From assembly GCF_022539665.2 (NCBI RefSeq), contig NC_081333.1, positions 4,588,001-4,652,000 on the forward strand: DNA of 64,000 nt, in the 5' to 3' direction. The position numbers were made by a program, and so were the translations under genes. The stretch's first letter is position 1, and each line of letters starts with the position of its first letter. Of this stretch, positions 10,304 to 43,757 are shown in pieces. The stretch comes from Daphnia carinata. Lineage: Eukaryota. The notes under the pieces were generated by a model. The model was not told the DNA's origin. It saw nothing but the letters and a program-made list of their open reading frames with translations, and ran no database searches.

Positions 10304-12188
10304 TTACTTGAAAATTTTGCCTTGGTTAAAGGGACGGCCATTTTTATCGGTGCCCGTCCACGAGAAGTATTGTGCCACCAACGCTTTAGTTTCCTCTGAA
10401 TCAGGGTCCAGTTTCTTCCAGTCATAGGTTTCATAGTCAATTTGCCAATCCGGGCTCAACTGCATATGATGAAAAGAAATAAAAATGTTAAAACACATCC
10501 AATCCTTAGCCAACAAAAAAGCCTTAGAATAGATAATTCTTTTACTTTCCCTCTATTTGTTACACGAAATGTTTATAAAAAACATTCGTGTCTTTGAAAG
10601 AGGTTGACATACGTAATGAATTTTACCTGAAATGCTAAATCTTGTCCACGCCAGACCCAGACTCCCGAGATAGTACTGTCGTTGTCGGCCCCGAACAGGC
10701 ACATGGATGCAAAGCATTGCTTCCTCATTTTGTCCAACCTTTGATACATGCCTATTAAAGAAAAACTATTCATGTAAATTCTCAATCAGAGAAATTATCT
10801 TTGACTAACCGCCAATCAAATTTGAGGACATGAAGACTTTGGTAAGTTCTTCAGAGTATTTGTACTCCCCAAACCAAATAGAATAATTCTCTTTGTCAAA
10901 CTTTTCCCAGAAGTAAGGGATTGATTTGGTTTCTTCATTGTTTGAATAAAAGCGCTTGAAATCATCCATATTGAAAGTCCCTTTGGGCATTTCATCAAAA
11001 GGATCTTTGGATTTTGGTTCCTCAAGCAAAGCTGCTTCAGCAGCATCAAGTTCTTCTGGTTCCTCTTCCGCCTTCTTTGGCTTTGGTTTTTCCTCTTTCT
11101 TTTCTTTCTTCTTCTCTTCCTTTACAGCTTTCTTTTCTTCTTTCTTGGATGACCCACCCATTTTGCCTATTACATTGAATTGGCATAACATCTCATATTT
11201 ATGCATTTATGTACATTTCCTTACTTTGGAACTCAGCAAACTTCTTGGGATCCACCTGGCATTCTTTCTGGCACATCTTAAAGTCTCCAAGAACAGCCTT
11301 GAACTGGGGTTGGTTGACACAGGTAACAAACCATCTGTTTAAATTTTGGTATGGTTTCCTGTTGGTTTCATCACAAATGTTCTCATAAAGGTGAAGAAGA
11401 TTGCAGGCAACAACAATGTCTGCAAGGGTTATTTTCTCTCCAACCAAAAACGTGCGGGTTAGAAGATGATTGTTAACAACAGAAAGGATGGTGTTCAACT
11501 CCTGCTTGGCATGATCAACAGCCTAGGAAAAAAGTTTAAAAAGTTTAAAATGTTAAAACTATGAAAAATATGTTTAAAATTTTCAAAACCTACCTGTTTG
11601 TTATATTGAATTATTCCAAGTACTGGAAAAACAATTGTACAGGACAATGGAAGAATTTCACCATCAGCAAATGACATCCACTGAAGGATATGGGCCTTCT
11701 CTACATCACTGTTTCCACGAAGTTGCTGGTTGGCAACTAAATTACAAGACAGAAAAATACTGACATTGCCAGAAAACTAACGGCAACTCGAATTACCGAA
11801 ATAAGCGATTGCGTTGCTTTCAGCAATGCATTGCCCATCTTGGGATTCAAACGCTGGCACCTAGGACAAATACATTACAGAAACATTAACAAAAGTAATT
11901 AAATTTAAAGAACTTACTTTCCCCAATGGAAATTTCTTGAGAAAGGATTCGCTCTTGTTGGTCTCTCCAAAAACAAAATTGGAAGCGACGTTGATTTTAA
12001 AACCGGAGTACTGAGCCGCAATAAGAGCCTTGCTGGCCCTAAAATTGCTTGGATAGGTGTACAAAGTCTAATAATTAACAAAGTAACAATGAAGTTTTGC
12101 AAAAAATAGCCAATCATTGAAAAATATACTCGGATGTTTAAGAATTTTTTAGATTAAATCAGAGAGTTATGCTCACCCCAGAAGCCAT
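10304..12188 (-). CDS. eEF1G: Elongation factor 1-gamma; exons 12177-12188, 11918-12067, 11797-11860, 11594-11736, 11225-11522, 10810-11166, 10627-10751, 10304-10459
   Basis: GST-like N-terminus [26 protein letters not shown]...KFPLGKVPAFE, Lys/Glu-rich linker, C-terminal domain [23 protein letters not shown]...[10 protein letters not shown]...FNQGKIFK. All introns GT-AG and frame-consistent. AATAAA on the minus strand at 10049-10054. Confidence 0.97.
10483..10606 (-). ncRNA. Candidate intronic box H/ACA snoRNA in the last EF1-gamma intron
   Basis: 167-nt intron versus ~55-70 nt for most others. Hairpin 1 has lower stem CCTCT/AGAGG, upper stem ACACGAATGTTT/AAACATTTCGTGT and an internal pocket. 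H box AAAGTA (10543-10548), a weaker hairpin 2, then ACA plus 3 nt (10483-10488). Confidence 0.7.
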
Positions 12189-13875: not shown

Positions 13876-16800
13876 ATGCCGGCGATTGTTTTGGAAAAAC
13901 CGAAACTGAGCAGACCCATGTGGAATTCCCTGAAATCCCACATAATTAGAGAAAGACAGAGAAAAAAGCAAGGTAATTATATTTTGGCTTGGAACCGACT
14001 TTCGGCTATAGAACAGTTATTGTATTTTGAAATGAGATTTGAAAGGAGTTGTTATTGTTTGTAACAGAACAGGAAGCAGATGCTGAGGTAGAGCGTCAAC
14101 GAAGAGAACGAGAAGACCAACAGAAAGAACAAGAAATGACTTTAGAAGAAACAAAGGAACAGGTTGCTCAATCAGAATCCAAACTTTCACAGTTGAAAGA
14201 AGACAAACACCAATTATTTCTTCAGCTCAAAAAAGTCCTTAATGAAGATGATACCAGAAGAAAAATTAAGGAGTCCAGTTTTAAGTATGCATCTACACAT
14301 CTTTTCCTTTGATATAAATTTAAACATTAGTCACAGAACTTTGTTGAACAGGTTTTTAATAGCAATGAAAGTGGTCTCTGTTTTAGTGTGGGGGGTGTGT
14401 ATTTTCTTGTCTTGGTTGTTAATGATTATAGTATTTTCCATAACTTTTAAAACTATTGGTTTAAACTAAAAATGTTTTTGGTTCCTGGATAAAGTCTTAA
14501 ATCTGTTTTTACCTCAGCAGTGATATGATGCTGTTTCATCCTTATCAAACTGGAACTTCTCTAGTACATCCGAGTACCCATGGTTCTTTGTACATGCACC
14601 CCAATCTTGGTACTCCTAGGCCAGTCTTCAATGGTGGGAAAGAAGAATCCCTTTTGAATCTGCACGGAGTACCACCTTCGTCACTCTATGGACAGCCGGT
14701 GAATATGGTCCCTTCTCTAGGACATCAAATTCAAGCTAGTCAGAAGAGATCCCGGAGTCCGTCTCCGCCACCTCAGCTGTATCATTCATACAAACCACCG
14801 TCACTTTCCCCATACAATCCAAGTAAAATGCTAGTCCTTCGCTTTTTTCATTTTCTTTCTTTCTTTTTTATTAATTGAATTCCTGATTATTTGTATTGAT
14901 TATATTATAGAAGGTACCGGTAGTCCGTATGGAGGGAGCCCTGCAGTCCCTGGTAGCATTTTCTATACACACTCCGTTTCAGTAAGTGCTGCACATAGCG
15001 CAGCAAGTGGCGGCTATCAACTGCCTCCAGGGTCGATGTACAGCTACCCCACTCACTCTTCTTCCTCACGCCCAACATATTCTGTTCAAACGCCGGTCTC
15101 ATCCAAAGATGATGCTTCTTCTGCTTCTAAGCATCATTCAGCTGTATATGTCGGACAAGGAAATGTTCTACCTCAGAATCCTCAAAGAAGTAAGCATTGA
15201 TTACCTATAATATGAGATTCTAATTGGGAAATAAGATTGAGGTTAGAAGCAAAAAAAATTTAAATAAAAATTACATCAGCAAACCTATTGTGGTTGTCAA
15301 ACTAAAGAATGCAACTGAAAGCTTGGCAAGAGAAACTCAAAACGTACATTTATAATTTTTCAGATGTCCCACCGAGAAATTCTGGGCCTTCGCTAAATCA
15401 AGGTTGGTACCGTATTGATTTCCGGTTTTTTTTTTGCTATGGAAATATGTTGTATACTGATTATATTATATTTTATTTATTAAAAAATTTTTTTTAGGAT
15501 ACCACCACCAGCCTGTTGAACATATGCTTGGCAAAAATCCAAGTACTTATGGACCTACAGAACAAGAAAAATACTTTATTTCACCTTCTCATGGTTCTGC
15601 CTCAAACGTGTCTTCAAACGCTAGTGGCGCCCAATCAGCTGGTGGGTTACGTCCTCATGCTGGTTTATTAGCGCCAATACCAGTTCCTGGTGCGTCGCAC
15701 CCATCTGGAATTCCCATTCAGCAACAAAATCATACAAAAAGTGGTAGCATTATTACAGGAAACCCGTTACGGCCTCCACCTTCAACCGGCTCCTACCACT
15801 CTGCTACTTCTGCACCAAACGTAAGTAAATTAAAAAAAAAAAACTCAATAGCATCCATGTGTTTAGGTCAAATTTGATCAAACTGAAGTTTTATTTAATA
15901 TAGCAAAGCTTATAAAGTACCGAGTAAGAATAGGTTACGTTTAGTTTTGCAAATATGTCCGAAGACGTTTCGTATTTCGCCTGTTCCAACATGAGCAGTA
16001 GTTTAACTAGTAAAAATTGTATTCTTTTGTTTGCTTATAGCAAACCGTAATTTTCTACGTTTTTCTTTTGCTTTTTTTTTTTCCTATTTTCTGTTGTTTT
16101 TTGTTTTCCCGTTTTCTATTTTCCAGTTAAAATAAGGCATTTAAGAGAACAAATGAATTTTGTACAGATGGTGAACACAAATACTGTAGTGACTCGCAAA
16201 AATGAGTACTTGTGTTCTATAATGTTTTGCCGTCGAAATTTTTTTGCATAAATTTTTAGCTAGGTTAATTGCACACATGGTCCAATAAGATAGCAAAAGC
16301 AATAGCTTATTGCCTATCGCCGCTAGACATCCCTGCCATTAGGGCTCTTTGAAAACAAAATACTCCCTAAGAATCCTAAATATCTTAAAAATAGGATCTG
16401 GTGAATCAAGGATCTGAAGATTTGAAACCTTGTCCTACAAAATTTTGGTTTGCCTTATGCAATCTTTTAACATTCGAAAGATAAATAGGTCATTGCTCAC
16501 TGGTGATGGATTTTCCTTCTTATTTTACGTAGCACCAGTCAAATAGTTCAGTTCTTCATTGGTTTTCTGTCTTTATTCCACTTAAACATATTTGCTGTTA
16601 ACACGAACAACAAAACTCTAGTCCTTGAGCAAATTCTAGTTTCGGTTTGTATGGCGAAGTGTGTAATCTGGAGAAAATTACTTTTACTTATTTGGCGGCT
16701 GTTCTAGAAAAAGACGTTGTCGTCTTACTGCACCTAGAAGCAAACAAGAACTTCTAAATACTATTCTAGGTCAATCAGAATTTACCCATTTGATTCGTAT

Positions 16801-18140: not shown

Positions 18141-18945
18141 GGCTTATTATTTCATTCATATTTAGCGTTCCAAAATGACCAAATGGATGTGGAAATATTC
18201 ACAATAGAGACAGTGCTCAGTTGAAGAAAGATTCATATATGGGAATGGAGAGAGCTGTACGAGATAGATATTGGGAGACTGATTATGGAAATGATGGAAG
18301 CGAAGGTGAAAATCGGAATGGTTGAAAATGAAATCCATACTATGAGCAGCAAGATACGTCAAAATGTGATGCTCTAGGAAGTAAGGAAACTACACCGCCA
18401 TCTAGTGTTCCATCTCGCCATGAACTATAAAACAATTTGAACACGCCGGATGCGCTGGAACAATATTTAGCTCGCACTCCTCAACGGTCTGCAAAAGCAA
18501 AAACATCTCCTCTTGAAATATAAAAATAACCCTGTTAAGATTTGAGTTGCATTATAAGTCTGGTTACAAGAACGTAAGATGACAAATTTAGTATTATTCT
18601 TAAGTTTAATGTTAACAATTTTTTCCCTTCTAGAGATCCAGTCTTACACGTAGAGGCCCTTTGAATATATGAAAATTCTTCTGAAGCAGTTAATTATGGC
18701 AATTTGTTTTACCCAAACAAAAAAAATCGCACTTTTTTTCTTTCCCCTTACATCTACCGTCGTCTTTGTAAATACATAAATTCGTTACTATAGCAGCTAA
18801 TTGTAGTCGAATGTTCGTTCGACCTGAACTGTGTCGACCTTGTATTCTACAGCTCTTTTACAGCAGACAAAAAAAAGGTAGTTTAGGAGGGAGGGTTGGC
18901 AACCCTTTGGCCTCAGACCTTTTCTAGCTCTGTTACAGCATAGTC

Positions 18946-21900
18946 ATGTCTGATCCTAGCTCTAGTTCCAGCTCAGAAAGTTCAAGTGATAGTGATGTGT
19001 CGTCTCGTGGCTCATCTAGGAGATTGAGAATCAGCACGGCTAGAGTTAGAGTAAGCCCCCACGGTTTAGTTCATAGGGACGTTACTCCAGACATTCAAAG
19101 AGAAGAAGAGGCCGACGCCCTGGGGTTAGCCGATCCAGATCGGGACCTTTCGCCGGCTCCTGAGATTCCCCAGGACCCAAAAGTTCCATTGGAAGGAGAG
19201 AGGAAAAGGCGTCCAAGGGATGAAGAGAAAGATCAAAACCCGAGGGCAGGGAAACGACATAAAAACGAGGATGCGGTTGTAAAATTCAAATTGTCAAAGA
19301 GTAGAGGAAAGAGACTGCTACGCCCCTTTTTTAGGGGAGTAGGCGCATCAAATTCCAAGGTAACTAAGGGGCGTTACCTGGCTTCCTTTAAAAAGCGCTC
19401 AACCGCGTTTAAATGCCCTTCCTTGGACGACGCTCTCTACCAACGCCTCAAGCAAGTTAAAGGATCGTCGGCTTCAAAGAACACGATCGATCACAACGAG
19501 AGGGCCTTGTACTGCGTACAGCAAAAGATCTTAGAGGCAGCACAACCACTTCTTTTTTTGTCTAATGAGAAACTTGATGACGACTCTCACCGCGAAGCGA
19601 TTAGTGTAGCTATTCAATTGCTGGGGGATTCCTTTCACGAGGTTACTCAACAGCGAAGAAAGAATGTACTCAGGCAGACTAGCCCTTCATACCTCTACCT
19701 CCTCGACGATCAGGACAACTTTAACACCAAGGAGGCTAGTTCTCTTTTCGGAAAATCTTTCGTAAAATCTATGGTGAGGTCTTCACAACAACTTACCATG
19801 CTAAGCAATCTTCAACCGGTTCAACGCCTGTCAGGGCAACCTTACCGCAATGGCGGACATCAATTTCGCCATCCTGATGGGCACAACAATAGGCCGTCGG
19901 GTCAATCCACCAGCCATCGCTTTGAATCCACCGACGCCCAGCAGGGTTCGTCGTTCAACAACACACAAGTGGGAGAGGCCAACACCCCCTCGGCTAGACT
20001 CGGCGGAGAACGCAGCGCAGTCGAGTACAACACGACCCAGCAGAGTGCCGGGACACCAAGACACTTCAACAACAGGGGAAGGTACGTGTCTATCGTTAAA
20101 TCAAACATCGGCAGACCGCTCTCCCCATCTGGTTCGGAAGTTGCGATAGGGGGTAGGATATCAGCCTTCAAAATGAATTGGTTCAAAATATCAGCTGATC
20201 CTTGGATCCTTGAGTTAGTTTCTAATGGGCTGAGACTGGAATTTTACTCGACGCCTACGCAAGAGAACGTACCGAATAACGCAGCGTTGGGACCGAGTCA
20301 TTGGGCAATCTGTAATGAGGAAGTAGAAGACATGATTAAGAAAAGGGCGGTGGTGCGCGCCGAAACGAGGGGTTTCGTTAGCAGCATATTCATCATTCCC
20401 AAGAAATCAGGGGGCTTTAGACCCGTCATTAACTTAAAAAGGCTCAACACGTATGTTGTGTATAGGCACTTCAAAATGGAAGGGGTCAGCTCAATCAAAC
20501 ACGTAGTCCGCCATAACGACTGGATGGCAAAATTGGACCTTAAAGATGCGTACCTCGCAATACCCATCCACAGTGAGGACCAAAGTTTTTTACAGTTTAA
20601 ATGGAAAAACACTCTCTTTCAATTCATCTGTCTCCCTTTCGGCCTCTCCTCAGCCCCTTGGGCTTTTACTAAACTATTGAAGCCAGTCGTCGCGTATTTA
20701 AGACAGCGAGGAATTAGATTAATAATTTATTTGGATGATATATTAATTCTAAACCAATCTAAGGAGTCGTTAAAAGGGCAGTTAGTGGTAGTCGCCAATC
20801 TGCTGGATTCGCTTGGCTTCATTATCAATAAAGACAAATCGCATACAACCCCCACACAGGAAATAGAGTTCTTAGGCCTTTTGATTGATTCCACTACTGC
20901 TTCCCTTAAACTGCCTGACGCGAAGCAGGACGTCATCATTAAATTGTGCAAGAATGCCTTAAAAAAAGACTCTTTAACGTTAAGAGAAATCGCCAGCGTT
21001 CTAGGAAGGTTTACCTGGGCTGTTTGGGCTATCCCGTTTTCCCAAGCCCACTACCGTAATATCCAGAATACCTACATTAACGGACTCAAGCTAGACAATG
21101 GGGAACTAAAATCCAAAATCTCACTGAACCGGGAAGCTAGAGAAGACTTGTCATGGTGGACTTCATCGCATAATTTAAAGAAAAAGAAAGCACTGATAGA
21201 CCCAAGCCCTTCCATAACCATCTACGCCGATGCGTCTCTCTCAGGGTGGGGTGCAGTAAGTAACAATGTAAAAACGGGAGGTCCGTGGACATCAACCGAC
21301 ACCGCCAGGCATATAAACGAACTGGAACTTTTAGCAGGCTTCTACGCACTAAGATGTTTCGCAGAAGAAAGTCGTTCCAGTACCGTATTGCTTATACTAG
21401 ACAACTCAACGGCAGTGGCCTATATAAATAAAATTGGGGGTTCCAGATCGGCTAGCCTTAACAAAATAGCGCTAGATATAGCTGGATGGTGTGAGGAACG
21501 AGACATCACACTGCAGGCCACCCACTTACCAGGGTTTTTTAATGGCGTCGCAGATCTGGAATCGAGAGTGAGAAAATACTGGAGCGATTGGATGCTGAAG
21601 AAGGAGGTGTTTCAACTGATCCGGAGGAGATGGGAAGTGGCAATCGATCTATTCGCATCCCATTGGAATGCCCAACTGGAAACGTTCTCGAGCTGGAAAC
21701 CCCAACCGGGAGCGGCGGCGACGGACGCTCTCTCATTCAGCTGGCTAGGCCGCAACGGCTATGCCTTTCCCCCATTCTCTCTCATAGAAGACTGCCTGAC
21801 AAAGATAAGACAAGAGAGAGCGACACTGATCTTAGTATGTCCGTATTGGCCGAGCCAATCATGGTTTCCAACAGCCCTAGAGCTAGCTTCCGACATTCCA

Positions 21901-22158
21901 ATAGTTCTCCGCGTCTGCCCGGATCTACTTACGTCCAGTCGGGTGGAACCACACCCCCTGTGCGAATGCAAGAATTTCCAGTTAATCGCTTGGAAATTAT
22001 CCGGAAACGATATGCAGACCAGGGCTTTCCAGAACAAGTGGGCCAATTATTGCTGGCTGGCTCACGAGAGTCCACGAGAGATGCGTACCAGTCCGCCTGG
22101 CTCGCTTGGTACAATTGGTGCGGTAAACAAGACCAAAATCCCCTTCGAAATGACCTAA
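18946..22158 (+). CDS. DIRS polyprotein: Gag-like + reverse transcriptase + RNase H + DAM-like methyltransferase domain
   Basis: RT motifs FIIPKKSGGFRPVINLK, KLDLKDAY, LPFGLSSAP, YLDDILI; RNase H YADASLSGWG, HINELEL, DNSTAVAYINK, ADLESR; MT-like IDLFAS...YAFPPF...PYWPSQSW. Uninterrupted 1070-aa ORF. Confidence 0.95.
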   Translation: MSDPSSSSSSESSSDSDVSSRGSSRRLRISTARVRVSPHGLVHRDVTPDIQREEEADALGLADPDRDLSPAPEIPQDPKVPLEGERKRRPRDEEKDQNPRAGKRHKNEDAVVKFKLSKSRGKRLLRPFFRGVGASNSKVTKGRYLASFKKRSTAFKCPSLDDALYQRLKQVKGSSASKNTIDHNERALYCVQQKILEAAQPLLFLSNEKLDDDSHREAISVAIQLLGDSFHEVTQQRRKNVLRQTSPSYLYLLDDQDNFNTKEASSLFGKSFVKSMVRSSQQLTMLSNLQPVQRLSGQPYRNGGHQFRHPDGHNNRPSGQSTSHRFESTDAQQGSSFNNTQVGEANTPSARLGGERSAVEYNTTQQSAGTPRHFNNRGRYVSIVKSNIGRPLSPSGSEVAIGGRISAFKMNWFKISADPWILELVSNGLRLEFYSTPTQENVPNNAALGPSHWAICNEEVEDMIKKRAVVRAETRGFVSSIFIIPKKSGGFRPVINLKRLNTYVVYRHFKMEGVSSIKHVVRHNDWMAKLDLKDAYLAIPIHSEDQSFLQFKWKNTLFQFICLPFGLSSAPWAFTKLLKPVVAYLRQRGIRLIIYLDDILILNQSKESLKGQLVVVANLLDSLGFIINKDKSHTTPTQEIEFLGLLIDSTTASLKLPDAKQDVIIKLCKNALKKDSLTLREIASVLGRFTWAVWAIPFSQAHYRNIQNTYINGLKLDNGELKSKISLNREAREDLSWWTSSHNLKKKKALIDPSPSITIYADASLSGWGAVSNNVKTGGPWTSTDTARHINELELLAGFYALRCFAEESRSSTVLLILDNSTAVAYINKIGGSRSASLNKIALDIAGWCEERDITLQATHLPGFFNGVADLESRVRKYWSDWMLKKEVFQLIRRRWEVAIDLFASHWNAQLETFSSWKPQPGAAATDALSFSWLGRNGYAFPPFSLIEDCLTKIRQERATLILVCPYWPSQSWFPTALELASDIPIVLRVCPDLLTSSRVEPHPLCECKNFQLIAWKLSGNDMQTRAFQNKWANYCWLAHESPREMRTSPPGSLGTIGAVNKTKIPFEMT

Positions 22159-22961
22159 AACATATTCTATCATTCCTGTCAGAAGCCCATTTCGAAGGAA
22201 AAGCGTATGGCACAATAAATATTTATAGGTCGATGCTTTCCTCTACCTTACAACCAATTGATGGTCTACAGATCGGGAAACACCCGCTCATTGTAAAATT
22301 GATGAAAGGTATATACAATTCAAACCCTCCGAAACCTAGGTACGAGTTCACCTGGGACGTCAGTATAGTGACCAACCATTTAAGCCAACTTAAAAACGAG
22401 GATTTAGCTATCGGCCCCCTCGCTCGGAAACTGGCTACGCTTCTGGCGTTAGCATCCTTCCTTCGAGCTTCGGAAGTGGCTTCTATCGGGAAAGAGGATC
22501 TAAGAATAAGTGAATCCGGTATGAATTTCTCCCTCCTAAAACCGAGAAAGGCTCAGAAGGAAGGAGCGCTAAAAACGTTCTTTATCAAAAGAATTCCGGA
22601 CCCCCGAATTGACCCGGTATCTTGCACGGAACACTACATATCTATAACGGAGAAGTATCGCGTGCAATCGAATGGTAGGCATCTCTTTATGGGATCAGTG
22701 AAGCCGTACAACCCAGTAGTCGGATCGACCGTAGCGGGTTGGTTAAAGAGACAGCTGCAGGAAAGTGGCGTAGACACAGGCAGATTCTCGGCTCACTCAA
22801 CAAGAGGAGCGGCTTTTTCGAAAGCAGCAGCAGCAGGCATCTCTGTCCAAACAATTCTAAACACAGCCCACTGGTCCTCGGAATCAACCTTTACGAGATT
22901 TTACAGAAGGGATCTGCCCAAAGAACCTTCCGTAGCAGAAGTCGTTCTGAGCATAGACTAA
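21588..22961 (+). CDS. DIRS tyrosine recombinase (lambda integrase family), overlapping the MT region in another frame
   Basis: Catalytic residues in LRASEV (R), HSTR (H-x-x-R), HW and FY. N-terminal core-binding region YQSAWLAWYNWC. True start uncertain. Confidence 0.93.
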   Translation: MDAEEGGVSTDPEEMGSGNRSIRIPLECPTGNVLELETPTGSGGDGRSLIQLARPQRLCLSPILSHRRLPDKDKTRESDTDLSMSVLAEPIMVSNSPRASFRHSNSSPRLPGSTYVQSGGTTPPVRMQEFPVNRLEIIRKRYADQGFPEQVGQLLLAGSRESTRDAYQSAWLAWYNWCGKQDQNPLRNDLKHILSFLSEAHFEGKAYGTINIYRSMLSSTLQPIDGLQIGKHPLIVKLMKGIYNSNPPKPRYEFTWDVSIVTNHLSQLKNEDLAIGPLARKLATLLALASFLRASEVASIGKEDLRISESGMNFSLLKPRKAQKEGALKTFFIKRIPDPRIDPVSCTEHYISITEKYRVQSNGRHLFMGSVKPYNPVVGSTVAGWLKRQLQESGVDTGRFSAHSTRGAAFSKAAAAGISVQTILNTAHWSSESTFTRFYRRDLPKEPSVAEVVLSID

Positions 22962-22981
22962 ACAAATGTTGGCTTTAAAGT

Positions 22982-23095
22982 CACAGTTCAGGTCGAACGA
23001 ACATTCGACTACAATTGTAAATTGATCGAGAGCGCGAAGCGCTATCGACGATCAATTTTGATTGTATAAGAATAAGAGAGAGAGACCTGAACTGT
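22982..23095. repeat. DIRS internal complementary region (ICR)
   Basis: The first part is the exact reverse complement of the element's left end and the second part the exact reverse complement of its right end, joined through a shared AATT (circle-junction mimic). Confidence 0.93.
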
Positions 23096-23706
23096 AACAT
23101 CCACCCACCCACCCAGCTTTCCTATTTAATGAGTTTATAAGCTAATCATTCCCACATAGCACAAGTCTGGCCGTGGGATGTCCGCTAGATGTCGAGGTCG
23201 GATATAAGGTACATCCTGTTGACATCCGTCGGACAGCCCGAAATCCGATTTGGATGTCCGACGGATGTTTTTTTTGTTGGTTTTGACCGCCCTAAACAGC
23301 GCCGTCAGACATCCGAAGGATATCTGACCGGACTTCTTACGGCTATAATTTGGACATGTAAGGGATATCTGCATATTCATTCGTTTTATTGATTAATAAA
23401 ATAAAATCGTGAAATAGAAAAGACTGTTGTTATTTTTTGATCTTTGTATTGAAACATGACCAGATTAATGAACATGAGAAACCTTGTGTTGCACAACCAT
23501 ATGCAGATCAAAAACAAAAAAAGGAAAACAGATTCATAAAGAAATCATTTGTCTGACTACAAAAACAAAAACAAAACATTGCTTCAACATTATTCGGGCT
23601 GACTGTATCTGTGTGACTGTGACTGACTGTGAATATAGACGAGAAACATAAAAAAAATACAATTTTTTTCTTTGTGAATGGATGATGAATGGAATGATGA
23701 TGGGAC

Positions 23707-24040
23707 TCATAGGACAGGTACCGTGCGAGGTTTGTCTTTACAGTGTCGCAGCATGTCAATCATGGCTGATTTAACATCTGCCTCTGTAATCAATGGCGTG
23801 TTACGTACCGATGCAGCTGAAAGATCAATACGTATTATAAACGAATGAAACGGATAACATGAATATTTAAAATAAATACCAATTATCACTTTTCCGATGT
23901 TGGTATCGGCTAGCTTTTTGTTATTACGATGTCCAAACCAGCTGAAAGATTTGCCTAGTTCGTTGGTCATAAGCCGCCGGGCGATCGATCTAACAATTGT
24001 TCTTGGGGTGTTTCCCCCTATTGCGATCAGGTGGGTTTTC
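23707..24040 (-). pseudogene. C-terminal remnant of a DUF4806-like accessory gene of element A
   Basis: KTHLIAIGGNTPRTIVRSIARRLMTNELGKSFSWFG...NNKKL...VKSAMIDMLRHCKDK fits the GG...W-x-G...LR pattern of DUF4806-type proteins. N-terminal part missing. Confidence 0.6.
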
Positions 24041-24134
24041 TAGAAAACATTTAAAAAACAAACAAACAGACAACACCTGAAGTTTAATTTAATTCAAATT
24101 TTAATAATTAAAAAAAAATTACCAAACGTTGTGA

Positions 24135-24194
24135 CTGGGCGGGTACGGCAAGGCAGCTGGGTAGCTGGGCGGGTACGGCAAGGCAGCTGGGCAG
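24135..24194. repeat. 30-bp tandem duplication
   Basis: CTGGGCGGGTACGGCAAGGCAGCTGGG(T/C)AG x2. Confidence 0.9.
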
Positions 24195-24721
24195 CGCGAC
24201 GAACACGTTTCACAAGTCTTTCATGCACACTTTAAAATCCAAGTTCTGCTAATTTTCAAAAAATTCACACAACACCATACAAAGCACATGACTCAAAGGC
24301 AGCTACCGAGCGAATGCCTGAATCGCTAGATCCCCATGCGAAAGAAGTCGGAACTACCATTTTTTTTGCTTTTGGTGTTCATTCCCTAAACACAGGTAAA
24401 TGGTATCTTCTCAAAAAATTGCTCATCAAATAATTATTATTAATAAAACAGTTATCTTATAAAAAAACACTGTTGAAATTTAAGTAGATGTTTTTACGTT
24501 ACATATTAAATAGTAATTTCAAGTAAATTTAAATTTAATAAACTGCTGGAACATATCACTGCCATTTAAGTTATCTGACAATGCTGATTTAATATATAGG
24601 GGAAAAAGGCGGCCATTATTTTTCTAAATACCATGTATTATATGTGTTTTTCACAAATACGACAAGTGGATTTGCGCCTGTAACTGTCAACATGACGTGA
24701 ATGAAATTATTTCGTTAACAG

Positions 24722-25552
24722 GTTTACTGATGTTGGGATCCATTCTGTCTTTTATATCACTTATGCTGTTGGTTATGTCATTTGCCAGGTAATCCCAACC
24801 AATTCTCTGTCAAACATTCATATGCCAATTTACCCTTTGTTTACAGTCCACATTGGCTGGTCTCTTGGCAAGACACATACAGCCCGTTCAAGAACATGGG
24901 TCTCTGGGAGTTTTGTTTTAGCAGATTCCGTTACCCAAACTACCAATTTGATGACCTCGTTGATGGTTGCCACTATGTCTTCAGCAAGACATACTTTGTG
25001 ATTTGGGAATGGTTGCTGCCAGGTAAATTTAGAGTCACACTTTCCTTTGCCGGCTACTTCACAACTCTTTCATTTGCTCTCCAAAGGTTGGCTGATGGCA
25101 GTGCAGGTTTTTATGACGCTGGCCTTGATATTTTCCTGCTCTGCCCACATTGCCTTAACAATGCTTCTTGTTCGTTGGCCGCTCAACTTCACATTCCGAT
25201 ACCAGTGCAGATCCTGTCTGCCTGTGCACTAATGAATGGTTTGAAATCCTTTTGCCTCTTCCTGTCGGTGGCTGTCTTTGGTGGACAATGTTGGAGACGT
25301 GACTGGATGCCCTACCCAAATTTCAACTACCTCTCTTGGTCGTACGTGTTTGCCGTAATCGCCATGTTCATCGGAATGGCTGCCACAGCCAGTTTCTACT
25401 TCGTAAGTTCTCATCATGCAATTCACCATGAAATAATTCTAAACCAAGCAAACTATTCTAAAAATGACGCCAAGAGGACAGTGGAACGCAAGAAAGCCAA
25501 CAGCAATCTAGTTGTTCAGATGCAATCACACGGCAGCCAGATTTACATCTGA
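24722..25552 (+). pseudogene. pck: Captured intron-containing copy of the septate-junction claudin pickel/megatrachea, frameshifted
   Basis: Spliced reading VMSFASPHWLVSW..FKNMGLWEFCF..GCHYVFS..WLLPGWLMAVQVF..RWPL..FGGQCWRRDWMPYPNFNYLSWSY..NLVVQMQ..YI follows Drosophila Pickel as I recall it. Introns 24789-24846 and 25024-25087 retained; 1-nt frameshift near 25207; last acceptor apparently lacks AG. Confidence 0.85.
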
Positions 25553-25739
25553 AAATGTGTGCCTCATCCTCAAATATTTGGGCTACAAACAGTTGCAGCT
25601 GTGAATCTCTTTATCCATCATTCCGTTCCACAATGTCACCTCCGTCCATTGCTTAAATTTAAATCGTTGAGTGAGCTGTAATGTTTCTCTTTTTTTTTAA
25701 TGTAAAGTAGTTTTACCAGAAACTTGTTTGGGGTCTTAC

Positions 25740-25854
25740 CTGGAACTCTGGTAGAGCGGCAGAGGTCAAGGATGTACTCCATGGTCGTTAATTCGATGTT
25801 TCCGTCCATAATGAGCAAACGACAGTTGGCTATGTCCTCCTCGTACTGCCTCAC
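25740..25854 (-). pseudogene. Captured single exon resembling a PfkB-family (pseudouridine kinase-like) gene
   Basis: AG/GT-bounded exon VRQYEEDIANCRLLIMDGNIELTTMEYILDLCRSTRVP. The hydrophobic strand-D-G-N-helix pattern resembles YeiC-like kinases. No flanking exons recognised. Confidence 0.55.
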
Positions 25855-26787
25855 CTTTTTTTTTATTACAAGTTGACGAAAATAGATTGGATCTTTTAAA
25901 TAATTCTGTTTGTGTGCCGTCACTTTCATTCAGAGTTGTGTGTTCCCTACACACTACAACAAAAAAAGGTATGTACGGTTCTAGAGTTAAATGCAACTAC
26001 TTAGTAAAAATTTATTAAAAATATTTTTATTTTCAATATATTCAAAAAAATTTGTTGAAGATCTTCTTGTCTGCTCGAGGGATGTTGTTAGGACATCATT
26101 TTTGCACATCCATCGGACATCCAACCAGACTAGCCGAAGGACATCCGTGGGCCAGCCCATAGAAGACACGGACATTCGGCCATGGATCGGACATCCGACG
26201 GCTGAGATGTGCTATGTGGGTTGTTACCCTTTTAAAACGCAGATTGGATCATCGGCAAAGTGGGATCCAACAGTTCAGGGGCAGGTATTGACGGATTCCG
26301 ACGACCACCTACCCTAGTAGAACAATATATCTTATTCCTTTCTTATCGATATCTAAATTTCTTTAAAAAAATCATTTTCAGATATGTTTGCGGTGTGTTT
26401 GCATTGACGAAATGTCATGGCTATGAGATATCTGAGGAAAACATTTTTTAAATATTTTGTTCCGACAGGTTATGTACACCACTAATTGTGTAACCTATAT
26501 ATATACAATTATAGAGCGAAATGAAATATTGATAAACAACTAAAAAACATAACCTTTATTTCGTTTCTTTTTACAAAATGGTACAACGGACAAACAAAAT
26601 TACTCTTCCATTGCGTTGCATAACTTAAAGAAAATTACTTTCTACACATTTATTGATTTGTGATTTATTTCTTGTTAGTAAAACAGCATCAGTTTTAAGG
26701 ACACGTTGAATTCAATAGAACCGATAAAATAATTTGTTACTTATAGACAAAAGCAAAAAAGAATGAAATCAAATAACAAATTACGTC

Positions 26788-29700
26788 TTAATTGGAATCC
26801 GATTCTTCTTGGACTTGAGCTTTCAACTGTTCAGAAAGAAAATGCGCCTTGGTATTGCGTAGATGTAGTTTGGTTTCCTGAACGAAGAATTCGTATTCCA
26901 TTTCATGGAACGATTTGTTCGAACGGATTCCATCTGAAATTTCAAATATGAAAATTACCATGCTGAAATTATAATGATTTGTAGTAGAAACAGAATATAC
27001 TTACCTAAGACTGCCTTGGTGATAATATAGGAACGGATTCCTCTTTTGCCTAGACCATTGTTAACTCTTTTGTCCCATCTTCCTAGCCAATTCACTTCTT
27101 TCAACAGAGAATCGGCGAAAACGGTGGACCATCATCTGCGAACGTAGTCAGCAGCACTGTTTTTCGAATTTCTCTTACCAACCAGACGAATACGGGTTAC
27201 CTAAATAATAATTTTATAAAATTTTAATCTCTTTAAACGTATTTCAGGTTGGTAAACTTACGAGCTTTTTCAATAAGCTAGGGTCCTTCTTAAAAATGAT
27301 TTCAAACGCATCTAGTTGTTGCAAATTCTTCGGAGGAAGGGAGTGGAAGTCGTCCTGCATTTCACTGCAGTCTTCGTCAGAAACTGGCTTGATAGACTTT
27401 TCTATAATTGACAATTTTTCGTTAATTTTTGCCAAAGCCGCGGTAAACTGTTCCTTCCTGGGAGCAACTTTTCCTATAAAAATTGTAAAAATAAAAATTG
27501 AATTACTAAATTTAAATGTATTTGAGCCATTGCTTAAAAGGTTACCAAAATCTTGGCTTCCGAAATCACGCGATGCATTTGATGGACTTGAAGGATTCAT
27601 TTGGTAACGAGAATCGAGGTGCTGAGAATTATCTTTCCAATAAGTTAGCATTCCGCCGCTGTAGTAGCCCCCATTATAATTTGAAAATGGTTCCACCGTT
27701 TCTAAAATTTGTAAGGAGAAGTATGGCATGAATGAGTGTTGAAAGTTACAAAACATAATAAAAAACAAGAAAAGATTTATTCAAAGCTTACCGAGCTGCT
27801 TGTTTCCATGCGAATCATCTTCCTTAGATGCGGTTATGCGGCAGATAGTGTTTACTAAAATACGCGTAGATATGTTACATATGTTTTAAGATATGAAATT
27901 GGTGAACAAAACTGGCTAGATAAATAAACTGATCAAGCTTACCAGGCTGAAAAGCTGACTGACTTAGAAAATCCACGCTGTACGGTCCTTCTTTAGAAGT
28001 GAACGGGGCATTATTATTATCATCAGGAACTGAAAATATAACAAAATACTTTACACATTTGCATTCGTAAAAAACTATGAATGATAAATTACCATGCTGC
28101 AAAGTTGAATGAGTTGGAAGACACACATTGTTGAACGACAACCCTTCTCTGCAAGCAGGGTTGGATTACCGCGTTAAAAAAAATACCGCGATAGTACCGC
28201 GGTAATGCGGTATTACCGCTACCGTTACCGCTAGTAAAAAATATCAAAAATCGGTAACGGTACTTTTACGCCATCTAGCGCTGCGACTATAAATTTTTTC
28301 CTGTTTTTAGCAGACTGCATTTCAAGTAAATATTTCAAAACGTTTTTTGGAAATAGGAATTATTTCCAAAGTTGTTCACAGGGTTTGAGGGACCTCGATC
28401 AAGCAAATACGTCTAAATTTCGGACAAATGCTACTATGTACTACCCTTAAATGACAAATACTACCCTTAACAAGTTGCATTCTCACTTCTGCAGGTTTAT
28501 CTAGGCTAGTACTAGGAATGTTTTATGGCTGCTATTGCAGCAGTGTTTAAAATTTTGAAGTAATGCAGCCATCCATAGAATATTGTAAAAAATGTTGCTA
28601 TTATTTGTGTGTGCTTCAAGTTATTAAAGAAAGATAGAGGTTATGATAGTCTAGTTTATTTTAGCCTTTAGTTTAATGAATTTTTTTCTATTCAAAATTG
28701 GTTATTTTGAATTTCCTACTAATGACAATTACATATCCGAAGTTGATTGAAGTATGGATATTGTCTCTGAACCATCTCTTGACATATCCATCAACATTGG
28801 TGAGGCGAAAACTAGTTCTACACAATCAAAAACAAAAGGGAAGAAAGGTGAGAAAATGAAACATGAAACAAACTTGAAACCAACCAAATTAATTCACATT
28901 ATAAATCCAAGTTCAATTTTAGATGGCGAAAAACGTATCATTCACTATCCTGAAACGCTTATCAAATAAGTTGGACCAGGCAAGAGAAAGGGAACTTCGT
29001 ATGATGAATGCCTTATTGGACAGTGCAAAGTAAAGCCAAAGGCACTATCAGCAGTAGACAATTTAAGAGGCAACATCACAAAACACCTTTCAATTAAACA
29101 TAACAAAGAAAATTTTGAAAATTTTCAATTTTCTATGGAAAGAAACTGACATTACCCGTGAAACGAATTTCAAAGTGAAACGAAGTAGTTCTTTCCTGAA
29201 AACACAAGGAACTGCAGCAACATTAAAAGAAACTCAAACAAAACTATCGTAAAGTGGCAACCTACGAAGTTTAGATCTTTATTACATTACGAGACCGAAA
29301 TTTAGATTTTTCTTGTGCATGCTATGCACTCGTCTTGGAGTCAAAATAAAACGATACTGTGAGAAGTACGATAAGTGTTTCCTTCGAAAAAAAAAGATAA
29401 GGCTCTAAGGAAACCCCAATGAAGCAAAATGGCTCTGCAATATTGCTGACTATTTTTAGGGGCCAACAGTTCGTTATAATAAAATCACATCAATACAGAA
29501 GTGATTTTCATGAAGTCTGATCGTATTATGCAAAAAAAAAAATTTACCGCTACCGTTACCGTGCGTTACTTGGATAAGTAGTACCGCGGTAGTACCGCTA
29601 CCGCTTTACTTTTGAAAAAAAATTGAAGTAAAGCTACCGCGGTAGCGGTACTATTTAAAAGTACCGCTTCCAACACTGTCTGCAAGTGTGGGTGGCAGTT

Positions 29701-30542
29701 TTGTTATGATGAACTGAAAATATCTAATACGGTTAAAGATTGTGTCAAAATAATAAAAAATAACTTGTGAGTTACCAGGCTGCAAAGTTGAATGAGTTGA
29801 AAGATACTCATTACTGAATGGCGAGCCTTCTCTGCAAGTGGAGGTGGCTGTATTATTACCAGGAACTGTAAATATTATACGGTTAGAGATTGGTGAAAGT
29901 AGTATGGAATAAATTTTAACTTGCCAGGTTGAAGGAATTTTCTTTTGACTGTTAGTAGTCTTTTTTGTTAAACGAAGACCTACTAGTGGCTTTGGGAGAG
30001 AACCTGCAGTGGGTTTGGACAGCGTGCTTTTAGGAGAAGATGTCTTAGATGGTTTGGCCTTCACTGCTGTTTCCCTAGAACGTTGAGTGGAAATCTCTTC
30101 CTCACTGTCAATTTCTGTTGTTTCTCCAGGCATATTAAGCCTCTTCCTTTTCTTCTCTCGCTGTCCTCTTCCTGTGTTGTGACAATTCAAGATAGGAAGA
30201 CCAGCTTCCACCCGCGGAAGATTACTCCTTGCTTCCTCATATGAGCCTATGCAGAAATTGAACCAAAATAGCCATCATAATAAAACAATTACCGCAAAAA
30301 GCATAAAATAAGAGTTTAAAATGTTTACCAAATTTTTCCACGATTTTGAAACAGGGGTTACTGTCCCATTTTTCCACATCAGGAGGCATTCTACACTTCA
30401 AGGGATTGGCTTTGTACGCAACAGCGTACGTATCGTCGGGTAATTAGAGGATGTCGTTATCGATCCAATTTTCAGCTACAACAAGTAGCCAGTTACCTTT
30501 TTCACGCGACGTTTAAGGTATATCGACAATCCAGTACGACAT
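26788..30542 (-). pseudogene. Multi-exon DUF4806-like accessory gene of element B with in-frame stops and a hAT insertion
   Basis: N-term MSYWIVDIP*..VVAENWID..PPDVEKW..|SYEEAR..TGRGQREKKRK; C-term LPPKNLQQLDAFE..KKL|VTRIRLVG..VRR*WSTVFADSLLKEVNWLG..|DGIR..LHLRN. GT-AG introns throughout. Confidence 0.7.
28156..29678 (+). mobile_element. Non-autonomous hAT element nested in element B
   Basis: Ends CAGGGTTGG / CCAACACTG, perfect 8-bp TSD TCTGCAAG (28148-28155, 29679-29686), dense TACCGC/GCGGTA subterminal repeats, and a BED-finger-like remnant CLIGQC...NITKHLSIKH at ~29009-29101. Confidence 0.92.
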
Positions 30543-33500
30543 AATGTCAACAAATTCTGCACGGTAATAGCAACAAACGTGAAACAGGCGTTTGAAAAAT
30601 GGCGAAGTAAACTTACATCGGTCGCCATGCGTTACAGTTGCCATTTACAAAATACTTTACTATTATCTTTGAAAATTGTGTATAAACATATATAAAATCA
30701 TTTTAAAGTAATTTTTAAAGTAAAAAAACATTTTTAATATAATAATTTCTTTTGTTGGAAATTCGCAATGTGTATGTTAAAAATACGTGAATTAAAAACA
30801 CCGTTTGACATCCCTGTTAAAGTAATCAATCGATTTAGTTAGTTTTCCAAACATCGCTAGCAAACAATAAGTGGATGGGTTTCAGTTTTTATTCTTGTTG
30901 TTGAGTTCAGTGTTTTCTTGTTCGTGGCATACATTATCATCTGCACAAAGCCAATAAACTTTTAAGGAACCTGTTTCACGAACTGTAAGGTAATTTACCA
31001 CCAAAATGATTTCATCATACTACTTTGCTTCTTTGTGATTTGCGGTACGTAATTTTACTTTTTTCCCTGTTTATAGCTGGTGCTTTCATATTTACATTGC
31101 GCTCCGTGGCCAAATACTTTATTTAATTCTTCCAACCAATTTCAAGAGTATTATCCGCTTCAGCCATTACGGTACTATAATCATCCAATTTTCAGTGTCA
31201 TATTACTTGTTTTGGTGGGTTTTCGTTGATAGATAAGCATTACGTTTTTCCTAGACTTTCGTCGTCAGTTTCTATGAATAAGCGAAAGGTTAAAGATTTC
31301 GTTGGTCCTAGACAATGAGCCCGTGGAATTCGTAGAATGGTTGATGAACAACTAAATGGAAATGGAAATGACTGCGTCACTCGTGACAACGAGGAAATGG
31401 GTAATTTACTCGAAGAAAGACCAATCAACTACATGGGAGTAGGGGATGTTGGTATTATTGTTGGTGATAGTTCGCCGAATCACGTTGAAAGCATTGACGA
31501 TTCATCAGTTGGGACAGGTAGTGATGTTGAAGGAAGTCATTACGGTCCTACTGAAGATAAAGAATACTTTGCCGATAACTTAACTTTATACTTTAACCAT
31601 GAACGACAAAAATTACACAGTATTTCAATTGCAATAATTTTAATTCCAAAAAATAGTTCAGCCTGTGAATAAAATAATTTAAAGCCATCTATTTACTCAT
31701 TTGTATTTTACATATATGGTGCGAGAAGGTTAAGTACGCCTCGCTGCCACGCACGCCAATTGCAATCTTTCATTTTGGGAACATACTTTTTAACTGTTGC
31801 TTATAGTGTTACACGAATTGTTGTTGCCAAAAATATTATAATAAAATATATGCCGAAAATAGTTTATGGAGGGGAAAATGTGGGAAAGATGTTTTTCACA
31901 AGACAGCCTGTAGACATCTGGTGGACATCAGTAAACTACACTAATATTTGACATATCGTTCTATAGGCTTACAGTTGTTTTAGATAACTAAATACAGTAA
32001 TTAGACAAGTTGGTATCTATTAGACATCAAAAAGATATCACGTTCTACTAGGGTAACTCAGATGAAGTGAAAAGGTCTGAGGCCAAAGGGTTGCCAACCC
32101 TCCCTCCTAAACTACCTTTTTTTCTGCTGTAAAAGAGCTGTAGAATACAAGGTCGACACAGTTCAGGTCTCTCTCTCTTATTCTTATACAATCAAAATTG
32201 ATCGTCGATAGCGCTTCGCGCTCTCGATCAATTTACAATTAGGACGACGGCAGCTAGCACACACACAGACAGCAGCAGTTAATAGTTATGGATAGACTTG
32301 ACGGTAATTATTGTTTAATTATGATTTATCGTGGTGTTATAATTCATTTAAATAAGAGCTCAGTGATATAATTAATTTGTAGAAATGATTTTTGTTGAAG
32401 AAGTTGTGCCTCAAGAGAAGTTTAATGAGCAAGTTGGTGAAAACTTAAGCTTTTAAAGTAAGAATTCAAAACAAGTGTATGATTTTACAAGCAATTATTT
32501 AATTTTTAGTCATTCAATCCACTGGGATTGTCATCGGCTTCGAACTTGCAGAAATCAAACTCATAATCAATTGTTTTACAGTGGGCTCGACAAACTTACT
32601 CAGTGTTCCAGGGAAACTGGTGCACATTTCATTGAACTAAGTACAAAAAACTAATCTTTATACTTAAATTCCTTAGCTTTTATTTACTTCTCCATCTTTA
32701 AATATTATTCTCCAGCTACTGAACTGACTGCCAATGGAATCGAATGACCTTAAACCGTCTACACGCCTGTAGCAATAACAATAAAATGGATGGCTTAGAG
32801 GCAGAGAAAAACTTGGGGTCCTTGTCAATGCAACGTCGAACAAGCGGATTACATAGATGAAGTTTTCGGTTTGCAATTAAAAGCATTGTAGAAGTAAAAG
32901 ACCTGAAAAAAAAACAAACATTGGGAGTACCTCCTGTCAGAAAACCTGACGCCCGACTCCCAGTCGACGAGTTAAGCCAGGACCGGGAAAGAGAATGCAA
33001 GCCCGGAGGACGAGGGGATAGAAAACCTAGGCGGAGAAAACCAGCCAAGTGCCGCGACGTAAGTATCCGCACCGTTGGACGAACTAGAGAGTAAGCGTGC
33101 CCGGAGGAAGAGGGCAACACACCGCTTATTAAACCCAGGGAATCCGGTATATGATATCCAAATATGTTGACGTGTTCTACATCTATATAGGAGCGGTCTC
33201 TAACGAGAAGGGTCAGAACCTCACACCAAAAACTAACGGAAGAAAAGAAGATAGTAGCCGCCAAGAAAACCCTTTCAACATCGGGGAAGGGGAATTGAAG
33301 TATAGTAGGAGGGGGTCATCCCGCAGTTACAAGAAAGAAGAATAAGCGGTGACATCTAGGCCAACGTTGAAATTAATGTTTGAGTCGAATAAATTATCTG
33401 TCAACGGTGGGTTTTGTAGGGGTATAAAGAGGGCCGAATAGGCCTATTGAATACACTCACATTTTTGCACCGATCGAGTCTGGTAATTATTTCTTACTTG

Positions 33501-33816
33501 CTTCCTTGTTGTTGTGTTGTTTGCTGCTGCCTGCCTATTGCCGCTGTCTACCTGCCGTTTCGCCGTTCGCCGCTGGTCGTTGCCTCGTGCCGTTTGCTGC
33601 CTGCCGACCCGCCGATTCGCCGTCTCGCGCCGCCGCCACCTGTCTTCGCTGCACCTCCATCCATCACCCTCACGAGTAAGTACTTAATAATATTTTTTCT
33701 CTAAACTTATTTCAATTATTCTAGGCGCGGTCCATCCTGAGCTGCCGAGTGTCCAGACCGGATCCGCCCGCCTGCCACGATAGTCCCCCCCTAGAAGGGA
33801 GTACTATCCATTATAC

Positions 33817-34016
33817 GCCCGTGATTCTTAGTCGAGTCACGGTCATCAAAATATACGGTAGCCCCCATAAGGGCTAGGCCTTCAAAATTTGCATTCCACC
33901 TTCATTTATCTGAGTCGGCAGTCTCCGACGGTGGAAGTAATTTCCACATTTGCCCGTGATTCTTAGTCGAGTCACGGTCATCAAAATATACGCTAGCCCC
34001 CATAAGGGCTAGGCCT
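33817..34016. repeat. 65-bp direct repeat pair with a 70-bp spacer, hairpin-rich
   Basis: 33817-33881 and 33952-34016 are identical except for one base. Confidence 0.9.

Positions 34017-40883: not shown

Positions 40884-43757
<2,874 letters not shown>

What the first reader, a model, noticed from the sequence alone, without database searches (positions are those of the whole stretch)
23151..26220. Pack-type CACTA/CMC element that captured host genes (pickel claudin plus a kinase exon) in an animal genome
Seen: between perfect 13-bp TIRs with a TT TSD lies most of a pickel/megatrachea gene with its introns, plus an opposite-strand exon of a second, PfkB-like gene. Known: DNA-level gene capture by TIR elements is classic in plants (Pack-MULE, Pack-CACTA) and much less documented in animals. 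Inference: retained introns imply DNA-level capture, and the TSD shows the loaded element transposed here as a unit, so this may be a gene-carrying family in this lineage.
Basis: partly seen in the sequence, partly recalled or inferred. Interest (0 to 1): 0.85.

Follow-up and report, generated by a model that had tools for sequence, protein, structure and literature searches.

The report
Water-flea transposon carrying captured claudin gene
A 3-kb cut-and-paste transposon of the CACTA type in a water-flea (Daphnia) genome holds a broken copy of most of the cell-junction gene pickel with its introns, likely picked up once and then spread to several chromosomes, and related transposon ends in other samples adjoin broken pieces of other conserved genes, which points to a plant-style gene-carrying transposon family in an animal.

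Summary
Confirmed, with corrections. 23151-26220 has exact 13-bp CCC-start TIRs, subterminal repeats and a TT duplication. It sits in the 3' spacer of a young DIRS retrotransposon. Inside are the last two exons of a multicopy Daphnia DUF4806 gene (likely the element's own), an unidentified segment, and about 1.3 kb of host DNA: pickel exons 2-5 with introns (frameshift, dead splice acceptor, 5 missense changes) and one antisense exon of an Indigoidine_A/PfkB gene. These two genes are neighbours in other Daphnia sequences (pickel likely nested in a PfkB intron), so this is one capture, not two. D. carinata RefSeq has a full-length pickel and three other copies on two other large contigs. Two share this copy's F74V change, and one model carries the element's internal sequence. 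The same TIR family in metagenome contigs adjoins degenerate mTOR, TRC8/RNF145-type and Rif1 pieces (3 of 7 ends with 700 bp or more of interior; second end not seen). Animal Pack-TIRs are known, but none of the 370 listed by Tan et al. 2021 is labelled CACTA. Not shown: DNA of the other copies, the parental locus, an autonomous transposase partner.

The parts
23149..23150 (.). left copy of 2-bp target-site duplication (TT)
   Evidence: sequence
23151..23163 (+). left 13-bp TIR, CCC start
   Evidence: unique in window
23164..23367 (+). left (L-type) subterminal region with GGATGT/ACATCC repeats
   Evidence: 64% identical over 230 columns to one end of complete element L010:1288-2563
23707..24039 (-). 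last two exons (one intron) of a DUF4806 gene, likely the element's own accessory gene; upstream exons absent
   Evidence: tblastn of D. sinensis/D. magna DUF4806 proteins P0160-P0165, P0169-P0173; HMM E 1.5e-51; family dispersed at several loci in both species
24097..24378 (-). unidentified element-internal segment with a 30-bp tandem duplication (24135-24194); its + strand matches the N-terminus of D. carinata gene model P0125
   Evidence: no Pfam hit; no match to DUF4806 proteins
24650..24721 (+). 3' part of pickel intron 1; left capture junction lies at about 24637-24661
   Evidence: intron-reading models P0126 (D. magna) and P0125 match here
24722..25552 (+). pickel/megatrachea claudin exons 2-5 (24722-24788, 24847-25022, 25087-25402, 25466-25552) with introns; F74V, A102V, S118L, L170P, A182V, 1-bp deletion near 25206, last acceptor AT
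   Evidence: numbering of P0124
25740..25854 (-). single internal exon of the Indigoidine_A/PfkB (pseudouridine-metabolising type) gene with flanking intron DNA; similarity runs to at least 25914
26060..26207 (-). right (R-type) subterminal region; start approximate
26208..26220 (-). right 13-bp TIR
26221..26222 (.). right copy of TT duplication
18799..32240 (+). host DIRS1-like retrotransposon: left ITR 18799-18924, open ORFs 18928-22158 (RT) and 21543-22961 (tyrosine recombinase), ICRs 22982-23095, right ITR and extension 32069-32240; the Pack element and a second TIR element interrupt the spacer between ICR and right ITR
   Evidence: structure as described in PMC3266345 (passages)

Best explanation
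This is a non-autonomous CACTA/CMC-type DNA transposon that holds a 1.3-kb intron-containing piece of the Daphnia pickel/PfkB locus, likely acquired once by template switching or gap repair inside a deleted element and then likely moved as a unit by a transposase supplied in trans. Shown: the ends, the TT duplication, the cargo with its introns and lesions, the DUF4806 remnant, and the position inside a DIRS. Inferred: that pickel is nested in an intron of the PfkB gene at the parental locus; that the other D. carinata copies are TIR-bounded; the repair route of capture; and mobilisation by an autonomous partner. This copy is a decaying pseudogene fragment.
For: Ends and TSD match the animal CACTA (TRC) pattern of CCC start and 2-bp duplication (PMC1636069 passages). 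The cargo is one contiguous piece. ORFs from other Daphnia-type contigs read across pickel's end into the kinase exon at the same spacing. D. magna pickel XP_045028930 and PfkB XP_045028924 lie on a contig of the same length, 13,367,246. The next PfkB exon is not in the element. Multicopy: D. carinata has full-length P0124 (10.9-Mb contig) plus P0123 (14.4-Mb) and P0125 and P0014 (11.6-Mb). V at position 74 occurs in the window, P0123 and P0125 only; 71 of the 73 session proteins with that motif have F. The P0125 model joins the element's 24165-24194 repeat to the pickel piece. Cargo older than this insertion: 5 missense changes in 470 nonsynonymous sites, against no stop in the DIRS ORFs and no substitution in 219 paired repeat bases; conditional p 0.013, or 0.031 for the 4 private changes. 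The family is mobile: 9 of 21 scan loci are true family ends with varied 2-bp flanks. L010/L019 (94% over 782 bp) and L003/L012 (100% over 79 bp) are near-identical ends at different sites.
Against: No DNA of the parental locus or of the other D. carinata copies could be read: no genome is held, and the scans of viral and prokaryote contigs found nothing. Their TIRs, TSDs and junction microhomology are therefore unseen. No transposase linked to this TIR family was found. The clock is weak on ORFs alone (p 0.16-0.23), assumes equal mutation rates and an unchanged parental allele, and one 3-bp indel separates the DIRS ITRs. The one complete relative, L010:1288-2563, has TC/TT flanks (one mismatch, or TT/TT with an extra C) and no identified cargo.
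Confidence: 0.8

Rival explanations
1. Transposition-independent fill-in: an empty element inserted here first and a later break inside it was repaired from the pickel locus, as Tan et al. propose for most single-copy animal Pack-TIRs.
For: This is the commonest route in the 100-genome survey (PMC8277862 section 7). A TSD does not tell the two routes apart.
Against: The derived F74V and the element-cargo junction recur at other loci, which needs one capture followed by copying. The cargo looks older than its DIRS host.
Confidence: 0.07
2. One capture, but the copies were spread by segmental duplication or ectopic recombination, not by transposase.
For: P0125 and P0014 share a contig and a further S-to-L change, so that pair could be a local duplication. 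The flanks of the other copies were not seen.
Against: This copy has its own TSD inside a nearly undiverged DIRS. The copies lie on at least two large contigs other than the parent's.
Confidence: 0.07
3. Same end product, different capture route: two elements inserted on either side of the pickel segment and an aberrant excision picked up the DNA between them (Arabidopsis Pack-CACTA model).
For: Shown in real time for Arabidopsis Pack-CACTA (PMC6379663 abstract). The TIR sequence occurs twice, head-to-tail and 732 bp apart, in L003.
Against: Both junctions are internal, after 1.5 kb of left-end DNA and about 0.25 kb of right-end DNA, with no extra TIR inside. That does not exclude the model but fits gap repair or template switching as well.
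Confidence: 0.2
4. Assembly chimera, or the native pickel gene.
For: No reads could be laid on the region. The frameshift falls at a likely GG dinucleotide and could be a sequencing error.
Against: Exon 1 and the flanking PfkB exons are absent; there are five missense changes and a dead acceptor; a full-length protein exists. The DIRS terminal repeats pair across the insertion. The same junction appears in a database gene model from another locus.
Confidence: 0.02

Closest known systems
Plant Pack-CACTA / Pack-TYPE elements (Arabidopsis, PMC6379663; abstract seen)
   Same: Non-autonomous CACTA-derived ends around chromosomal gene fragments, mobilised in trans.
   Different: Animal host; CCC termini and 2-bp TSD. 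Mobilisation here is inferred from sequence, not observed.
Animal Pack-TIRs, including multicopy Ssk-FB4 (Tan et al. 2021, PMC8277862; passages, section 7, supplement searches and part 1 of 4 of Supplementary Data 1 seen)
   Same: A TIR element with an internal copy of host DNA whose parent is elsewhere; multicopy, on other chromosomes; chimeric gene models. Ssk is also a junction gene.
   Different: 87% of the 370 cases are hAT or Tc/mariner, only four are multicopy, and the median cargo is 224 bp. The strings CACTA, Spm, EnSpm, CMC and Chapaev occur in the 12 supplements only in the header of the TE-count table, and Daphnia not at all; rows labelled Unknown exist. Here the cargo is 1.3 kb with several exons, in a CACTA-type element.
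Animal CACTA (TRC/EnSpm) transposons (PMC1636069, passages seen); Daphnia pulex CACTA families (PMC2884549, passages seen)
   Same: CCC terminal core and 2-bp duplication. CACTA families are documented in Daphnia.
   Different: No transposase in this copy. The searched passages of the Daphnia paper contain no word beginning 'captur'. Its TIR figure could not be seen, so identity with a named Daphnia family is untested.

Membership tests
CACTA/CMC (animal TRC/EnSpm) | TIRs starting CCC (or CAC) | tested here: met
   13-bp exact TIR; criterion from PMC1636069
CACTA/CMC (animal TRC/EnSpm) | 2-bp target-site duplication of variable sequence | tested here: met
   TT/TT; varied flanks at nine other ends; L010 has one mismatch
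CACTA/CMC (animal TRC/EnSpm) | subterminal short repeats in both orientations (recalled feature of CACTA) | tested here: met
   5-6 motifs per 300 bp against 0.17 expected
CACTA/CMC (animal TRC/EnSpm) | autonomous partner with the same TIRs encoding a Transposase_21-type DDE transposase | tested here: inconclusive
   none in this element or inside the nine other ends; DUF4806 locus scan found nothing; no genome to search
Pack-TYPE / Pack-TIR | internal host-derived DNA between the TIRs, introns kept | tested here: met
Pack-TYPE / Pack-TIR | intact parental copy elsewhere, not associated with the TIRs | tested here: inconclusive
   full-length protein P0124 on another contig; its DNA and flanks not readable
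Pack-TYPE / Pack-TIR | non-autonomous (no transposase) | tested here: met
   only a DUF4806 3' remnant; six-frame reading and Pfam
multicopy (transposed) Pack-TIR | several copies, same junctions, distinct TSDs | tested here: inconclusive
   shared F74V and junction at protein level; TSDs of other copies not readable
Helitron or retroduplication capture | no TIR/TSD (Helitron), or introns lost (retrocopy); recalled criteria | tested here: not met
   TIRs, TSD and introns all present

The most novel reading that the evidence does not exclude
One CACTA/CMC lineage in Daphnia routinely captures kilobase, intron-containing pieces of conserved genes (pickel/PfkB here; mTOR, TRC8/RNF145-type and Rif1 in L002, L012, L016) and disperses them: an animal counterpart of the rice Pack-MULE system and a source of Daphnia gene duplicates. 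Some loaded copies (D. carinata LOC130702718 and LOC130698734) are modelled with an open claudin frame from the first membrane helix onward and may be young expressed or chimeric genes.
Probability: 0.45. Interest if true: 0.8.

Novelty: new variant of a known kind. Interest (0 to 1): 0.62.

Why it matters
The published animal survey found TIR-element capture to be rare, small, mostly single-copy and confined largely to hAT and Tc/mariner. A multicopy Pack-CACTA with multi-exon cargo, in a family whose ends adjoin pieces of several unrelated conserved genes, would show that the plant mode of gene shuffling also runs in an animal. Daphnia has mutation-accumulation lines and many genomes, so capture and movement could be tested directly. 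It may also explain some apparent paralogues in Daphnia annotations (the three extra D. carinata pickel models) as transposon cargo. Daphnia's high gene-duplication rate is recalled, not checked here.

Tried and rejected
No own genome and no read data, so parental DNA, junction microhomology and copy number were not measured. The TIR pattern found 0 matches in viral contigs and 0 in prokaryote genome contigs. Protein-led locus scans for DUF4806 and pickel found no locus. Of 21 metagenome pattern hits, 12 were dropped as chance: no homology to the family beyond the searched motif (L011 and L021 match only each other). Pfam was given 82 of the 118 ORFs of 60 aa or more and 45 of the 109 ORFs of 32 aa or more from the family loci. 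L008, L010/L019 and L015 interiors gave no solid host-gene hit; an MBDa hit in L010 (E 0.002 among many queries) is not relied on. PDB sequence searches did not name the Rif1 or TRC8 pieces; RNF145 versus RNF139 is unresolved beyond Pfam TRC8_N. The DUF4806 HMM did not recognise the gene in the neighbouring element. The segment 24097-24378 stays unidentified. Selection on the intact D. carinata copies is not supported: 4 of 5 private missense changes fall in one of three lineages, p 0.14 for any lineage. Site counts used wrong frames for two exons and were redone. Rejected: two separate captures; native gene; retrocopy. Three look-ups of earlier scan findings returned nothing. Nine literature searches listed no paper on CACTA gene capture in Daphnia or another animal; most were judged from listings only, and the library lacks most subscription journals and Repbase Reports.

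Full report
Observation. The element runs from 23151 to 26220. The 13-bp TIR and its exact complement occur once each in the window and are flanked by TT on both sides. Such a pair arises in 4 of 100 resampled windows, so the TIR/TSD alone is suggestive only. It is backed by 5-6 GGATGT/ACATCC subterminal motifs per end against 0.17 expected and by homologous ends in unrelated contigs. No genome is held for this window and no read data could be had, so the outside evidence comes from protein databases and one metagenome scan.

Organism and cargo. The claudin's best named relatives are Daphnia pickel proteins. At diagnostic residues it matches D. carinata, not D. magna, D. pulex or D. galeata. 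Exons 2-5 are present with introns of 58, 64 and 63 bp and the 3' part of intron 1; exon 1 is missing. Against full-length D. carinata P0124 it has F74V, A102V, S118L, L170P and A182V, a 1-bp deletion near 25206, and a last acceptor that reads AT. It is a pseudogene fragment. The antisense exon 25854-25740 matches residues 432-470 of D. magna LOC116921268, an Indigoidine_A plus PfkB protein (97% over 39 aa), and no other exon of that gene is in the window.

One capture, not two. Unnamed ORFs from Daphnia-type contigs (P0024, P0088, P0156, P0157) run across pickel's end and the kinase exon in the same order and spacing. The D. magna pickel and PfkB proteins sit on a contig of the same length with RefSeq numbers six apart (that these numbers follow position is my own knowledge). 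The intron after the kinase exon runs into pickel's 3' end without the next kinase exon, so I infer that pickel is nested in a PfkB-gene intron. The captured piece runs from about 24650 to at least 25914.

Element backbone. On the left, 24039-23707 (-) holds the last two exons of a DUF4806 gene, about 95% identical outside the intron to D. sinensis proteins and slightly less to D. magna ones. That gene occurs at several dispersed loci in both species, as expected of a transposon gene; its link to CACTA elements is recalled and I found no paper for it. The segment 24097-24378 is unidentified. There is no transposase. CCC termini with a 2-bp duplication are the described signature of animal CACTA (TRC) elements (PMC1636069, passages), and CACTA families are known in D. 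pulex (PMC2884549, passages).

Did it move loaded? First, D. carinata RefSeq has three further pickel-like models: P0123 on a 14.4-Mb contig, and P0125 and P0014 on an 11.6-Mb contig; the full-length P0124 is on a 10.9-Mb contig. All three lack the exon-1 peptide. V74 is found only in P0123, P0125 and the window; the other 71 of 73 proteins with that motif have F. The N-terminus of P0125 matches the element's internal repeat at 24165-24194 and then pickel intron 1, and P0014 shares part of that N-terminus. None equals the window copy, which has four private missense changes. Second, the element lies in the spacer between the ICRs and right ITR of a DIRS1-like retrotransposon with the canonical layout (PMC3266345, passages). 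Its two long ORFs are open and its paired repeats differ by one 3-bp indel and no substitution in 219 bases. Had the cargo's changes arisen in place, the conditional probability of this contrast is 0.013 (five changes) or 0.031 (four); from the ORFs alone it is only 0.16-0.23. Both lines favour one capture followed by transposition. They are indirect, because the flanks of the other copies were not seen.

A gene-carrying family? One scan of metagenome contigs with the TIR motif gave 21 loci, of which 9 are true family ends with varied 2-bp flanks. The organisms are not named; short introns suggest Daphnia or a relative (inference). Seven have 700 bp or more of interior, and three of these adjoin degenerate host-gene pieces that read toward the R-type end, as pickel does here. 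L002 holds about 1.2 kb or more of mTOR FAT-FRB exons with introns and at least five in-frame stops, with the match ending about 250 bp from the subterminal region. L012 holds TRC8_N exons (E 3.5e-31 and 1.4e-7), frameshifted by eye, next to the subterminal region. L016 holds the 3' part of a Rif1 homologue, 71% identical to P0174, with a stop where its relatives have Gly. In these three the second TIR is not on the contig, so capture is likely but not closed; an element end landing beside an old pseudogene is not excluded, least of all for L016. L010 is a complete 1276-bp element without identified cargo, and L019 is its copy at another site. L008 and L015 show no identified cargo.

Comparison. 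Pack-CACTA elements are established in plants (PMC6379663, abstract; listing). In animals, Tan et al. list 370 Pack-TIRs, 87% hAT or Tc/mariner and four multicopy, plus Ssk-FB4. A text search of their 12 supplements found CACTA, Spm and Chapaev only in a table header and Daphnia nowhere; I read part 1 of 4 of their case list. Nine literature searches showed no report of CACTA-type capture in Daphnia or other animals, within a library that lacks most subscription papers. So it works like a Pack-CACTA; it meets the structural tests for CACTA/CMC but the transposase test is open.

Verdict. A real Pack-type CACTA/CMC element in Daphnia, probably multicopy and probably from a family that captures often. 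It is a new variant of a known kind. Confidence in the main reading is 0.8; interest 0.62, rising to about 0.8 if a genome-wide catalogue confirms diverse cargo or expressed copies.

Noticed in passing
window 26312-32053: Second CCC-ended element 91 bp to the right: 12-bp TIR CCCTAGTAGAAC (11 of 12 bases as in the Tribolium TRC TIR quoted in PMC1636069) with TA/TA duplication. It holds a multi-exon minus-strand gene with repeated exons and a plus-strand ORF stub at about 31271-31670; neither was identified by Pfam or the DUF4806 HMM.
   Followed up: partly
window 28156-29678: TIR element with an 8-bp duplication (TCTGCAAG) and TACCGC subterminal repeats, hAT-like by TSD length (recalled), nested in the second CCC-ended element.
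   Followed up: partly
window 18799-32240: Apparently intact young DIRS1-like retrotransposon whose roughly 157-bp 3' spacer received two independent CACTA-type insertions 91 bp apart; possible insertion hotspot.
   Followed up: partly
L002, L012, L016 and window 24722-25552: In all four cases the main cargo gene reads toward the R-type end. In L010 and L012 a polyadenylation-like signal lies just inside that end (by eye). May reflect a capture or expression bias; n is small.
   Followed up: no
P0179, P0186, P0200: Short unnamed ORFs closer to the degenerate Rif1 copy of L016 (80-100%) than P0174 is (71%), one in a shifted frame: the degenerate Rif1 piece may itself be multicopy.
   Followed up: no
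L003:727-1537: Two TIRs in the same orientation 732 bp apart; the first end is interrupted by about 290 bp of other DNA and followed by a tandemly duplicated subterminal stretch.
   Followed up: no
L015:83-454 (-): ORF that looks by eye like a CACTA transposase piece (recalled motifs; no Pfam hit) just outside a family end, so probably a nested insertion.
   Followed up: partly
window 2691-3854, 10808-11522, 14043-15874, 40884-42188, 53906-54148: Ordinary host genes around the TE nest: homeobox, EF1-gamma, GPS2, forkhead, weak TMEM9.
   Followed up: no
window 33797-34016: Direct repeat of 85 bp, 91% identical, at 33797-33881 and 33933-34016; not examined.
   Followed up: no
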